Source of the DNA: a virus
Direction: 5' to 3' (one strand)
Virus record (IMG/VR): IMGVR_UViG_3300023210_000015
Location: 1 to 64,000 of that record
Length of the DNA: 64,000 bases
Positions 1,205 to 3,425 of this stretch are shown piece after piece. How positions within the stretch are numbered: position 1 is the stretch's first letter; every line of letters starts with the position of its first letter. Position numbers and translations under genes: made by a program. Under the pieces are notes generated by a model, which was given only the letters and a program-made list of their open reading frames with translations, made no database searches and had not been told where the DNA came from.

Positions 1205-1428
1205 AATAATATTTCGAGCCTACGCTGGCGAAAGCTGGAGGAAAGTCAGGATATCATTGCTCGAATGTGGGAGAGTATAACTCGTTTGAACCACAGAGGA
1301 TACAACACGAACAGACCTAGTGGGTGAGCAGCACTATAATGGTCGGGTAGTGGCAGCGGCGAGAGTCGCCACCGCAAGGTGAGATAAATGTAGGCATAGA
1401 ACAAGATCCTGCTTACGGAAATATTATT
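1205..1428 (+). ncRNA. rnpB: Miniature RNase P RNA
   Basis: P1 AATAATATTTCG/CGGAAATATTATT; P2 GCCTAC/GTAGGC; P3 with GAAA loop; CR-I GAGGAAAGTCAGGA pairing (P4) with CR-V AACAAGATCCTGCTTA; P5 TGCTC/GAGCA; AGATAAATG before the P2 3' strand. Confidence 0.85.
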
Positions 1429-1560: not shown

Positions 1561-1989
1561 ATGCCAATTTGCAAGAAATGTGGTGATAAATTCCCAAATG
1601 CGATTTATATAGATGGTCAACGCAAAAAACTTGATACAAGACTATATTGTTTAACGTGTTCTCCGTATAAAAGTTATAATAAAAAAGGTAGCGGAAAGAA
1701 TAAAGAAGAAAAAACAGAATATTTTAAAAAATATTGTAGAAAAAGAAGATTAGAACGAAAACGACAACTTGTTGAACTTTTAGGAGGACAGTGTGAAATT
1801 TGTGGTTATCACAAAAACGATAAAGCCTTGTGCTTTCATCACAAAAATCCTAAGAAGAAAAAATTTGGATTAGCCGGAAAAAATATATGGATGCGTTCTT
1901 GGGAAACAATTGTTGAAGAAGCAGCAAAGTGCCAACTTCTGTGTGCCAATTGTCACACAGAATTACATGATGCGAATGAAACTTATTAG
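1561..1989 (+). CDS. HNH endonuclease with zinc ribbons, tRNA-associated
   Basis: CxxC pairs; GGQCEICGY...ALCFHHKNP...KCQLLCANCHTELH. Confidence 0.85.
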   Translation: MPICKKCGDKFPNAIYIDGQRKKLDTRLYCLTCSPYKSYNKKGSGKNKEEKTEYFKKYCRKRRLERKRQLVELLGGQCEICGYHKNDKALCFHHKNPKKKKFGLAGKNIWMRSWETIVEEAAKCQLLCANCHTELHDANETY

Positions 1990-2045
1990 GTAAAGTGTTC
2001 GGTTCTTACCCGAAAATATTGAGAGTTCGAATCTCTCCATTCGTA
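1972..2045 (+). tRNA. tRNA-Lys(CTT), overlapping the last codons of the HNH gene
   Basis: Acceptor GCGAATG/CATTCGT, D stem ACTT/AAGT, anticodon arm TTCGG-TTCTTAC-CCGAA, T arm GAGAG-TTCGAAT-CTCTC. Confidence 0.75.
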
Positions 2046-2067
2046 GTTTAGTTAACAGGAGTGTAAG

Positions 2068-2499
2068 ATGAAGGATATGTTTGTTGGAATATGGCTTTTA
2101 TTTAAGTGGCATTTTATGGGATGTTATGCTGGTAAGGTTATAGCGTATGACAAAGACGTTTTAGAGGAATTGTTAAATACTGGTATTCATGCTTGTAATA
2201 AAAATGAAGATTGTACTAAAAAAACTGTGCTTGATAAAAAGATCAGGTCTGGCGGTGCCGTATTCCTAAGCAATATGAAGTGGATAGGAGGGAGCGGTTC
2301 TGGACTAATTCCTTACGGCGAAAATGCAAAAAACGTAGAAGGCAGTTATAGGTCATTCGCAGATAGTGAGATAGATAAAGTTAATAAAATTCGCATTTAT
2401 GCCGGTGGGACGATAGTAGTTTTTTCTGTAGTTTTGTTTATATTTTGTTCTGTAATTAGTTCTATAATTAGTTCTTCAATTAGTGTTATGATATTTTAA
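2068..2499 (+). CDS. Hypothetical membrane protein
   Basis: AGGAG RBS; hydrophobic C-terminus. Confidence 0.55.
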   Translation: MKDMFVGIWLLFKWHFMGCYAGKVIAYDKDVLEELLNTGIHACNKNEDCTKKTVLDKKIRSGGAVFLSNMKWIGGSGSGLIPYGENAKNVEGSYRSFADSEIDKVNKIRIYAGGTIVVFSVVLFIFCSVISSIISSSISVMIF

Positions 2500-2503
2500 A
2501 GTT

Positions 2504-2575
2504 GTCCCTATAGTTCAACGGACAGAATAAATCTTTCCTAAAGATTAGGTCTAGGTTCGATTCCCCGTAGGAGTA
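2504..2575 (+). tRNA. tRNA-Arg(CCT), possibly degenerate
   Basis: Anticodon arm AATCT-TTCCTAA-AGATT and TTCGATT T loop; mismatches in the T and acceptor stems. Confidence 0.6.
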
Positions 2576-2590
2576 TTAAGGAGATTGTGT

Positions 2591-3022
2591 ATGTCTATCG
2601 ATAATTTTTACCCAAGAACCCCTTATTATTTTTTATCAAATTTTTCCACAAGCCCATTTGAGTTTATGGGGATAGAATATCAAACTGTTGAGCATTTCTA
2701 TCAAGCGGCAAAAACCATAACACCAGAAGCGGCAGAAAGTATTATTTCTGCTAGCACCGCTAAAGAAGCCAAAAAACTTGGCAAACATGTTATGATACGT
2801 ACTGATTGGGACGATATCAAATTGGGAGTTATGGAACTTGCTTTACGTTTAAAATTCCAAGATGATTACTTGAGGAAAAAGTTGTTAGATACAGGCGAAG
2901 AACATTTAGAAGAAGGGAACTATTGGGAGGACAGATTCTGGGGAACTGTCGATAATATAGGTGAGAACCATTTAGGTAAGTTGTTAATGAAATTGAGAGA
3001 AGAATATGGACAGGAAAATTAG
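2591..3022 (+). CDS. NADAR (YbiA-like) family protein
   Basis: FLSNF, TVEHFYQAAK, AKKLGK, WDDIK..VM..AL..KF, LEEGN..DRFWG, GENHLGKLLMKLR. Confidence 0.9.
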   Translation: MSIDNFYPRTPYYFLSNFSTSPFEFMGIEYQTVEHFYQAAKTITPEAAESIISASTAKEAKKLGKHVMIRTDWDDIKLGVMELALRLKFQDDYLRKKLLDTGEEHLEEGNYWEDRFWGTVDNIGENHLGKLLMKLREEYGQEN

Positions 3023-3425
3023 AGTTAGAGATCAAGAAGGCAACATTAAGCATATATCGTCAGATGACTTGGAGCAGGGAAAAATTATCCAAGAAGAACT
3101 AGATGAGAATCTTTTAACAAGAGTAGGTTTGGTTTTCGCTGAAATAAAAGATGTCTTAATATCAGAAGCAGAAAAAATAGGCACATTAGAACAATTCGAA
3201 ATGCTTTTTATGCGTAGCGATGATCCCGAAAAAGATATTGAAACATGGGAAGACATTGTTAGGTCGTATAAGCTGGCCCAAAAATATTTTGGTCCGAGAG
3301 AAGAAATTCGCAGGATTATTTTTCGCATTCTTATGTTTTATGTTGTTGATGCCCTTTCAGATGAAGAGAATGAAAGGGAAGATGTGAAATTAATCAAGAA
3401 AATATATGACAACCTGCGAAAATAA
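3006..3425 (+). CDS. Hypothetical protein
   Basis: ORF overlapping its neighbours in an operon-like arrangement. Confidence 0.55.
   Translation: MDRKIRVRDQEGNIKHISSDDLEQGKIIQEELDENLLTRVGLVFAEIKDVLISEAEKIGTLEQFEMLFMRSDDPEKDIETWEDIVRSYKLAQKYFGPREEIRRIIFRILMFYVVDALSDEENEREDVKLIKKIYDNLRK

What the first reader, a model, noticed from the sequence alone, without database searches (positions are those of the whole stretch)
1205..1428. Phage-encoded miniature RNase P RNA (~220 nt)
Seen: P1, P2, P3, P4 (AAGTCAGGA/TCCTGCTT), P5, a P15-like hairpin with GGT in its loop (CACTA..TAGTG) and the CR-I and CR-V motifs are all present. The specificity domain is only ~60 nt (1263-1325). Established: bacterial RNase P RNAs are usually well over 300 nt, and the S domain contacts the tRNA D/T-loop elbow. 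Inference: an S-domain-reduced ribozyme would suit the non-canonical tRNAs in this genome (D-arm-less Tyr-like, long-D-stem Ser) and give the phage its own 5' maturation. No rnpA gene is visible in the window. I cannot confirm novelty without a search.
Basis: partly seen in the sequence, partly recalled or inferred. Interest (0 to 1): 0.8.

Follow-up and report, generated by a model that had tools for sequence, protein, structure and literature searches.

The report
Phage-encoded miniature RNase P RNA
A large uncultured phage carries a 224-base, stripped-down gene for RNase P RNA, the ribozyme that trims new tRNAs; it keeps the whole catalytic half but only a 36-base stub of the half that reads tRNA shape, and I found no paper describing such RNAs.

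Summary
Window 1205-1428 (+) aligns end to end with bacterial class A RNase P RNA (RF00010, 57 bits, E 5e-17 on a 461-nt search). That is below Rfam's 100-bit cut-off, so routine annotation misses it. P1-P6, P15-P17 and CR-I, CR-IV and CR-V are present. Its loop forms the P6 pseudoknot. The CCA-binding GGU lies at 1346-1348.

The window is phage DNA, with terminase, portal, RNR and 11 tRNAs. Thirty-five viral contigs hold related minis: 93% of pair cells are paired, against 64% when shuffled and 35-38% when slid. P4 and P6 were not in the search model, yet both covary. No rnpA was found in this record or in five other phage records.

New here: the same architecture occurs in bacterial chromosomes. 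In one Gemmataceae family sample, 5 of 91 genomes have only the mini, 74 have only a full-length RNA, and none has both. rnpA is intact in all five mini-only Planctomycete genomes tested.

Best reading: an active ribozyme that borrows host RnpA. Activity and expression are untested. This scan has noted the class before on other phage DNA.

The parts
1205..1428 (+). Whole miniature RNase P RNA gene (about 224 nt, from the 5' strand of P1 to its 3' strand)
   Evidence: RF00010 glocal match 1206-1431. Model R1 match 1204-1429 at 252.5 bits. GC is 47% against 36% for the window.
1205..1215 (+). P1 5' strand; pairs with 1418-1428
   Evidence: All 11 pairs show changes on both sides across 35 viral RNAs; 89% of cells are paired.
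1218..1223 (+). P2 5' strand; pairs with 1390-1395
   Evidence: All 6 pairs covary; 96% paired.
1225..1238 (+). P3 hairpin: 5 bp with a GAAA loop. It is longer in relatives.
   Evidence: The three basal pairs are 98% paired and covary. Alignment A3.
1239..1251 (+). CR-I: J3/4 plus the P4 5' strand (1243-1251), with bulged U1246
   Evidence: Matches the RF00010 consensus. P4 is a pseudoknot and was not in my model, yet it is 97.5% paired. The pair 1248/1410 occurs as AU 12, CG 11, GC 10.
1252..1255 (+). P5 5' strand; pairs with 1299-1302
   Evidence: All 4 pairs covary; 98.5% paired.
1258..1262 (+). P6 pseudoknot 5' strand; pairs with 1326-1330 in the P17 loop
   Evidence: Not in the model. About 90% paired, with double changes in 4 of 5 pairs.
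1263..1298 (+). Specificity-domain stub. Outer stem 1266-1270/1291-1295; apical hairpin 1273-1276/1280-1283. It has a conserved asymmetric internal loop (GA opposite a 7-nt strand with conserved U, G and A) and conserved flanking GAA and GAG.
   Evidence: Both stems covary. The motifs recur in L012, L013, L058, L060-L062 and L071. No CR-II or CR-III was aligned by RF00010.
1303..1305 (+). J5/15 CAA. It aligns with the consensus GCAA that holds E. coli A248.
   Evidence: Conserved in at least 32 of 35 viral RNAs and not imposed by the search pattern. Alignment.
1306..1352 (+). P15 (1306-1308/1350-1352), P16 (1314-1317/1341-1344), P17 (1318-1322/1332-1336), and the L15/16 loop GGGUA (1345-1349) that holds the GGU
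   Evidence: RF00010 alignment. P15 is 99% and P16 97% paired, with covariation at every pair. GGU is kept in the 12 RNAs aligned, except possibly L011.
1356..1381 (+). Two abutting small hairpins in the place of P18: 1356-1369 (GAGA loop) and 1370-1381 (GCAA loop). They are specific to this clade.
   Evidence: Present in about 11-13 of the 35 viral RNAs, where they covary (87% and 98% paired). The rest have nothing here.
1382..1389 (+). CR-IV (J18/2)
   Evidence: Matches the consensus. A1382, G1383, A1388 and U1389 are kept in 34 of 35 RNAs without being imposed by the pattern.
1401..1415 (+). CR-V: J2/4 plus the P4 3' strand (1407-1414)
   Evidence: Matches the consensus. The window reads AGA where 32-33 of 35 relatives read GAA, at 1404-1406.
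1971..2576 (+). Nearest likely substrates: tRNA-Lys (1971-2046) and tRNA-Arg (2503-2576), on the same strand. Nine more tRNAs lie at 19091-21256.
   Evidence: ARAGORN and Rfam. None of the tRNA genes encodes a 3' CCA.

Best explanation
Window 1205-1428 is a phage gene for a natural, minimised RNase P RNA derived from the bacterial class A type.

It keeps the whole catalytic domain:
- P1 to P5
- the P4 helix with its bulged U
- the P6 pseudoknot
- J5/15
- P15-P17 with the GGU that pairs with the tRNA 3' end
- CR-I, CR-IV and CR-V

The roughly 150-nt specificity domain is replaced by a conserved 36-nt stub.

Inferred mechanism: during infection the RNA is transcribed and binds the host's RnpA protein, because the phage has no rnpA. 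It then cleaves the 5' leaders of pre-tRNAs, above all the phage's own. Substrate recognition would run through the acceptor stem, leader and 3' end rather than the T/D-loop elbow. This would add to or secure tRNA-maturing capacity for the phage.

Shown here: homology, structure, selection and phage origin. Inferred: expression, the RnpA partnership, catalysis and the benefit to the phage.
For: - Homology: RF00010 aligns over its full length at 57.2 bits, E 5e-17.
- Structure under selection: in 35 viral RNAs, 93.3% of pair cells are paired, against 63.5% shuffled and 35-38% slid. 59 of 67 pairs changed on both sides. P4 and P6 were not in the model and still covary. The same holds on 47 RNAs that include cellular ones.
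- Functional residues that no search pattern imposed are conserved: the J5/15 CAA and CR-IV, and the L15 GGU. A mere protein decoy would not obviously need these.
- Only the RNA is conserved. The flanking proteins have no relatives beside the other minis.
- Phage origin: terminase, portal and RNR lie in the window, and the record is an IMG/VR virus.
- tRNA link: most of the viral loci scanned (9 of 11 pattern hits, plus L018) hold tRNA genes, up to 37 of them. The window has two tRNAs within 1.2 kb downstream.
- No rnpA was found in this record or in five other phage records that hold a mini. Two of those are 93% and 100% complete.
- Evidence that the architecture works in vivo: in a 91-genome Gemmataceae family sample, 5 genomes have only a mini of this type, 74 have only a full-length RNA, and none has both. 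One mini lies among ordinary chromosomal genes. rnpA is intact in 5 of 5 mini-only Planctomycete genomes tested.
[quoted passage not shown] Its efficiency depends on a P6-like pairing and not on P18 (PMC5839562). That matches what the natural minis keep and drop.
Against: - No activity or expression data.
- The score is below Rfam's gathering cut-off (57 against 100 bits).
- At 1404-1406 the window reads AGA where nearly all relatives, and the bacterial consensus, read GAA. This puts a G at the position aligning with a highly conserved J2/4 adenine.
- No sigma-70-like promoter was predicted just upstream.
- The record is only about 23% complete, so a phage rnpA or other protein partner cannot be excluded.
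- The tRNA genes encode no CCA, so use of the GGU depends on CCA being added before cleavage.
- The bacterial genomes are mostly MAGs, so 'only a mini' could partly reflect incompleteness.
Confidence: 0.75

Rival explanations
1. RnpA sponge or dominant-negative. The RNA binds host RnpA through its catalytic-domain surface but is a poor enzyme. Its role would be to starve the host RNase P RNA of protein and shut down host tRNA maturation.
For: The catalytic domain is retained. From established structural work (my knowledge, not tested here), this domain carries the RnpA-binding surface. No phage rnpA was found. The window has a non-consensus AGA in J2/4.
Against: The substrate-contact elements (L15 GGU, J5/15 CAA) and the bulged U in P4 are conserved across divergent phages. 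The phages carry tRNA genes that themselves need RNase P. The same architecture appears to serve as the only RNase P RNA in some bacteria.
Confidence: 0.1
2. An active ribozyme whose main substrates are not standard pre-tRNAs. It could process the phage's non-canonical tRNA-like RNAs or polycistronic phage transcripts. Losing elbow recognition would then be the point, not a side effect.
For: The S domain is lost. Two Ser tRNAs score better with the tRNA-Sec model, and a further tRNA-like RNA at 20652-20731 is missed by ARAGORN.
Against: Most relatives sit in ordinary tRNA arrays. Nine of the window's 11 ARAGORN-called tRNAs score best as the standard tRNA model, at 44-66 bits. Cellular carriers of the mini must process a full standard tRNA set.
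Confidence: 0.1
3. A decaying remnant of a captured host rnpB gene, with no function.
For: Half of the ancestral RNA is gone, and the score is below the Rfam cut-off.
Against: Compensatory changes maintain every helix across at least 35 divergent viral copies. The stub itself has conserved motifs. The gene is an island of conservation between unrelated flanks.
Confidence: 0.03

Closest known systems
Bacterial class A RNase P RNA (E. coli M1 RNA / rnpB, 377 nt; Rfam RF00010)
   Same: The catalytic domain matches helix for helix: P1-P6 and P15-P17, the bulged U in P4, CR-I, CR-IV and CR-V, the J5/15 adenines and the L15 GGU.
   Different: P7-P14 with CR-II and CR-III are replaced by a 36-nt stub. 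P18 is replaced by two tiny GNRA hairpins. The gene is encoded by a phage, about 150 nt shorter, and scores below the family cut-off.
Archaeal type T RNase P RNA of Pyrobaculum and relatives (about 200 nt; Lai et al. 2010, as described in PMC7191817)
   Same: [quoted passage not shown]
   Different: Type T is archaeal, works with archaeal proteins and is the cell's own enzyme. The window RNA aligns best to the bacterial class A model within the clan and is viral.
Engineered C-domain-only E. coli RNase P RNA (Eco CP RPR; PMC5839562)
   Same: It has the same domain content. [quoted passage not shown] The natural minis keep P6 and mostly lack P18.
   Different: It is a laboratory deletion with reduced efficiency. 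The phage RNA is an evolved gene with its own conserved stub and clade-specific hairpins.
Small RNase P RNAs of Patescibacteria genomes (212-242 nt; seen here, not found in print)
   Same: Similar overall size, and each matches an RNase P RNA model (RF00010, or the archaeal RF00373 in one case) over its full length.
   Different: This is a different kind of reduction. In the two I aligned, CR-II and CR-III are kept. One (L021) has lost P13/14 and P18 and has P12 and P15-17 cut down. They are the cell's only copy.

Membership tests
Bacterial RNase P RNA class A (RF00010) | Covariance-model score at or above the curated gathering cut-off (100 bits) | tested here: not met
   57.2 bits. The match is not reported at gathering threshold, in a whole-window E-value scan, or by the genome search filter.
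Bacterial RNase P RNA class A (RF00010) | CR-I with the P4 5' strand and the bulged U | tested here: met
   1239-1251 matches the consensus and U1246 is unpaired. U is invariant in 35 of 35 RNAs, though partly imposed by the search pattern.
Bacterial RNase P RNA class A (RF00010) | P4 long-range helix formed by CR-I and CR-V | tested here: met
   8 pairs are 97.5% paired. The two free positions covary (AU/CG/GC). The helix was not part of the model.
Bacterial RNase P RNA class A (RF00010) | CR-IV and CR-V single-stranded consensus (J18/2, J2/4) | tested here: met
   1382-1389 and 1401-1406 align to the consensus. One deviation: AGA instead of GAA at 1404-1406.
Bacterial RNase P RNA class A (RF00010) | P15-P16-P17 arm with GGU in the L15/16 loop, and the P6 pseudoknot from L17 | tested here: met
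   Alignment. P15, P16 and P17 covary, and P6 is about 90% paired with double changes.
Bacterial RNase P RNA class A (RF00010) | Specificity domain P7-P14 with CR-II and CR-III (tRNA elbow recognition) | tested here: not met
   About 140 model positions are covered by only 39 nt. The stub 1263-1298 has neither motif, whereas the Patescibacteria minis do keep them.
Bacterial RNase P RNA class A (RF00010) | P18 hairpin with a GNRA loop | tested here: inconclusive
   Two short GNRA-capped hairpins (1356-1369, 1370-1381) occupy its place. The first may be a P18 homologue. Most relatives have none.
Bacterial RNase P RNA class A (RF00010) | Cleaves pre-tRNA 5' leaders and works with RnpA | not testable with these tools
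   No assay was possible. The indirect support comes from mini-only Planctomycete genomes that keep rnpA.
Archaeal type T RNase P RNA | Archaeal-type catalytic domain with the S domain almost absent | tested here: inconclusive
   S-domain loss is shared. In the clan-wide Rfam scan, only the best overlapping match was kept, and that was the bacterial class A model. The type T score was not shown.

The most novel reading that the evidence does not exclude
The phage RNA forms a hybrid holoenzyme with host RnpA that recognises substrates without the tRNA elbow. That would let the phage mature its own tRNAs, including its odd ones. This viral type of ribozyme would also have displaced the full-length rnpB in a lineage of Gemmataceae. 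In the tree, the cellular minis form one shallow, well-supported clade, with two IMG/VR contigs at its base, inside a deep and otherwise mostly viral radiation. That would be a virus-to-cell replacement of an essential ribozyme.
Probability: 0.3. Interest if true: 0.9.

Novelty: new variant of a known kind. Interest (0 to 1): 0.8.

Why it matters
- RNase P RNA is one of the few universal ribozymes. The shape-reading domain of the bacterial form has been treated as a constant feature.
- A natural bacterial-type RNA without that domain gives a ready-made minimal ribozyme for structural and mechanistic work.
- It is encoded by large phages beside their tRNA genes. It also apparently suffices as the only RNase P RNA in some Planctomycetes. 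Together these make it testable how much of the enzyme is really needed in vivo.
- It adds RNase P to the translation-related functions that big phages carry.
- Standard annotation misses these genes, so they are probably much under-counted.

Tried and rejected
- blastn of the locus against 50,697 GenBank phage records found nothing.
- Rfam at gathering threshold, Rfam by E-value on the whole window and the genome search with RF00010 all miss the RNA. Only a short-range scan finds it.
- Relatives sought through the upstream radical-SAM-like protein gave 3 loci with no mini within 3 kb. One of those phages (527 kb, complete) has a longer version of about 330 nt some 80 kb away.
- I looked for a conserved protein neighbour as a possible phage-encoded partner. 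None of the five flanking ORFs recurs beside other minis. ORF 1561-1989 looks like an HNH endonuclease.
- A CCA-adding enzyme (PF01743) was not found in the record.
- MAFFT plus RNAalifold alone recovered only P4, P5 and P16, so a hand-made structure and covariance model were needed.
- The idea that the phage minis are simply Patescibacteria-type small RNase P RNAs was rejected. Those keep CR-II and CR-III.
- The idea that the Gemmataceae minis are accessory copies or mis-binned phage DNA was largely rejected. The context is chromosomal, and the mini and the full-length RNA are mutually exclusive.
- The mechanical ORFs overlapping the RNA (1202-1327 +, 1246-1620 -) were set aside, because the pattern of compensatory changes points to selection on the RNA.
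- Seven literature searches found no description of viral or Planctomycete S-domain-less RNase P RNAs.

Full report
**What is there**

The intergenic stretch after ORF 182-1198 holds a structured RNA gene on the + strand. When 461 nt around it are scanned, Rfam's bacterial class A RNase P model (RF00010) aligns over its full length to 1206-1431. The score is 57.2 bits, E 5.2e-17.

The same RNA is invisible to routine settings:
- It is not reported at Rfam's gathering cut-off of 100 bits.
- It is not reported in an E-value scan of the whole 64-kb window, where the speed filters drop it.
- The genome-wide family search misses it.

The window is phage DNA. It encodes a large terminase, a portal protein and ribonucleotide reductase. 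It also has 11 tRNAs. It is part of a 109-kb IMG/VR virus record that CheckV rates 23% complete, so it is a fragment of a very large phage. The RNA has 47% GC in a window of 36% GC.

**Anatomy (window coordinates)**

- P1: 1205-1215 with 1418-1428
- P2: 1218-1223 with 1390-1395
- P3: 1225-1229 with 1234-1238, GAAA loop
- CR-I: 1239-1251
- P4: 1243-1251 with 1407-1414, U1246 bulged
- P5: 1252-1255 with 1299-1302
- P6 pseudoknot: 1258-1262 with 1326-1330
- J5/15 CAA: 1303-1305
- P15: 1306-1308 with 1350-1352
- P16: 1314-1317 with 1341-1344
- P17: 1318-1322 with 1332-1336
- L15/16 loop GGGUA: 1345-1349
- CR-IV: 1382-1389
- CR-V: 1401-1415

These assignments follow the Rfam alignment and my own alignments.

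The region where P7-P14 should lie is a 36-nt stub (1263-1298). It has an outer 5-bp stem, a conserved asymmetric internal loop and a small variable hairpin. RF00010 covers about 140 model positions there with 39 nt and aligns no CR-II or CR-III.

Two abutting GNRA-capped hairpins (1356-1369 and 1370-1381) stand where P18 would be.

- The hairpin called 'P15-like' is P17. Its loop makes P6.
- The GGU that aligns with the RCCA-binding loop is at 1346-1348.
- The S-domain remnant is about 36 nt, not 60.

**Relatives and covariation**

A pattern made of the CR-I and CR-V cores, separated by 104-196 nt, finds 36 viral loci, three of them duplicates of others. It also finds 38 loci in species-representative genomes.

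I built a covariance model from the window and its two closest relatives, L012 and L013, with a hand-made structure. It recovers 35 viral RNAs.

On that alignment:
- 93.3% of pair cells are standard pairs. This compares with 63.5% when partners are shuffled and 35-38% when they are slid by 1-3 columns.
- 59 of 67 pairs have changes on both sides.
- P4 and P6 are pseudoknots and were not in the model, so their pairing is not fitted. P4 is 97.5% paired, with its two free positions covarying. P6 is about 90% paired.

The same picture holds for 47 RNAs that include cellular ones.

Residues not imposed by the search pattern are conserved: the J5/15 CAA, A and G at the start of CR-IV, and AU at its end. 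The L15 GGU is also kept.

The window's nearest relative is L012 (75% identity, 225-kb contig), followed by L058 and L013 (tree). The flanking proteins have no relatives beside other minis, so the RNA itself is the conserved unit.

Most of the viral loci scanned for tRNAs hold tRNA genes: 9 of 11 pattern hits, plus L018, with up to 37 genes in 7.7 kb. In the window, tRNA-Lys and tRNA-Arg lie 0.5 and 1.1 kb downstream on the same strand.

**Protein partner**

No RnpA (PF00825) was found in the window's record. None was found in five other phage records that hold a mini either. These include a 150-kb record rated 93% complete and a 527-kb record rated 100% complete. The controls detected RnpA in all ten bacterial control genomes. 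The phages therefore probably rely on host RnpA, or on an unrecognised protein.

**Cellular occurrences (new relative to earlier notes of this scan)**

The genome-collection hits are heterogeneous:
- *Patescibacteria.* Each of five genomes has a 212-242-nt RNA as its only RF00010 match. The two aligned keep CR-II and CR-III. One (L021) has lost P13/14 and P18 and has P12 and P15-17 cut down. This is a different kind of reduction.
- *Planctomycetes.* The hits scoring highest with my model lie in Planctomycete MAGs. One sits among ordinary chromosomal genes: aldose epimerase, 4-alpha-glucanotransferase, DUF58 and an O-antigen ligase-like gene. A tRNA-Thr follows 15 nt downstream.

I searched a sample of 91 genomes of that GTDB family:
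- 74 have a full-length RNase P RNA (363-667 nt, 162-310 bits).
- 5 have only a 221-234-nt mini.
- None has both. This holds with RF00010 and with my mini-specific model.

If minis were independent of the full-length gene, the chance that all five fall among the 17 genomes without one is about 1e-4 (my calculation). Three more Planctomycete MAGs are mini-only, and two genomes have both. rnpA is intact in 5 of 5 mini-only genomes tested.

The simplest reading is that in one sub-lineage this S-domain-less RNA is the housekeeping RNase P RNA and works with RnpA. These are MAGs, so the conclusion needs closed genomes.

In a 204-column tree, the Planctomycete minis form one shallow clade (SH-aLRT 98) with two IMG/VR contigs at its base. 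That clade lies inside a much more divergent, largely viral set. The root is unknown, so the direction of transfer is open.

**How it most likely works**

*Shown:* homology to RNase P RNA, a maintained catalytic-domain fold, conservation of the substrate-contact and active-site elements, phage origin, and linkage to tRNA genes.

[quoted passage not shown] It does so less efficiently, it depends on a P6-like pairing, and it is indifferent to P18 (PMC5839562). [quoted passage not shown] The natural minis keep exactly what those experiments found necessary and mostly drop P18.

*Inferred:* the phage RNA binds host RnpA and removes 5' leaders from pre-tRNAs, using the acceptor stem, leader and 3' end for recognition. 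This would supply or secure processing capacity for the phage's tRNA genes.

**Caveats**

- No expression or activity data.
- There is a non-consensus AGA at 1404-1406 in J2/4.
- No promoter-like site was predicted upstream.
- The tRNA genes do not encode CCA, and no CCA-adding enzyme was found in the record.

**Rivals**

- An RnpA sponge.
- A ribozyme aimed at non-standard substrates. The window does have Ser tRNAs that score better as tRNA-Sec-like, plus an uncalled tRNA-like RNA.
- A decaying relic.

The first two are not excluded. The third is contradicted by the covariation.

**Novelty**

Seven full-text searches found no description of virus-encoded RNase P RNA, or of S-domain-less bacterial-type RNase P RNA. 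The P Finder paper lists five prokaryotic structure types, with the minimal type T confined to archaea.

This scan has noted the same class many times on other phage DNA. I tested the claims independently here.

I class the RNA as a new variant of a known kind.

Noticed in passing
L045:4559-4782 (Gemmataceae MAG, 367-kb contig); also L031, L035, L044, L027, L042, L055: S-domain-less minis of the same architecture lie in Planctomycete chromosomes. In a 91-genome family sample, 5 genomes have only the mini, 74 have only a full-length RNA, and none has both. rnpA is intact in 5 of 5 mini-only genomes tested. It looks like a bacterial lineage whose sole RNase P RNA lacks the specificity domain.
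   Followed up: partly
L021:607-837, L046:7756-7963, L037, L041, L052 (Patescibacteria MAGs): Each of five Patescibacteria genomes has a 212-242-nt RNA as its only RF00010 match. The two I aligned keep CR-II and CR-III, and one (L021) has lost P13/14 and P18 with P12 and P15-17 cut down. This is a different kind of miniaturisation, and I did not find it in print.
   Followed up: partly
L056:1169-1417 (Pseudomonas sp. isolate contig): A 249-nt RNase P RNA scores 187 bits but has 103 model positions (P10-P14) reduced to 3 nt. It is the only RF00010 hit in that genome. The pattern also hit several Pseudomonadales MAGs, whose architecture I did not examine. It could be real or an assembly artefact.
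   Followed up: no
L023:509-741 and 2808-3203 (deltaproteobacterial MAG): A 233-nt mini (81 bits) lies 2 kb from the full-length rnpB (274 bits) on the same strand of one contig. Another genome (G040) has a 371-nt and a 245-nt copy.
   Followed up: no
L050:6074-6297 (Achromobacter anxifer LMG 26857): A cultured isolate carries a mini inside an 8-kb array of 32 tRNA genes, in addition to its normal rnpB elsewhere. It could serve as a tractable system for experiments.
   Followed up: no
L058:1501-1733 (-): In this close relative the most conserved part of P4 is rewritten by compensatory changes: AAG becomes AGC on the 5' strand and CUU becomes GCU on the 3' strand. The bulged U is kept.
   Followed up: partly
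L059 (complete 527-kb phage record), RNA of about 330 nt ending near the CR-V motif; tmRNA at L001:1736-2090: This phage shares the window's radical-SAM-like gene. It has a longer version of the RNA, with the same stub motifs but a roughly 125-nt insertion in the stub's apical hairpin. It also has a tmRNA gene and no rnpA.
   Followed up: partly
window 1561-1989 (+): The ORF just downstream of the RNA has the cysteine and histidine pattern of an HNH endonuclease. Its end overlaps the start of tRNA-Lys. It gave no Pfam hit at E 0.01, and it has no relatives beside other minis.
   Followed up: partly
window 20292-20731 (+): Two Ser tRNAs (20292-20384, 20561-20647) score better with the tRNA-Sec model than with the tRNA model. 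A further tRNA-like RNA at 20652-20731 has a CGA anticodon-like loop and a long variable arm, and ARAGORN does not call it.
   Followed up: partly
window, all 11 tRNA genes: None of the tRNA genes encodes a 3' CCA. No CCA-adding enzyme domain (PF01743) was found in the 109-kb record.
   Followed up: partly
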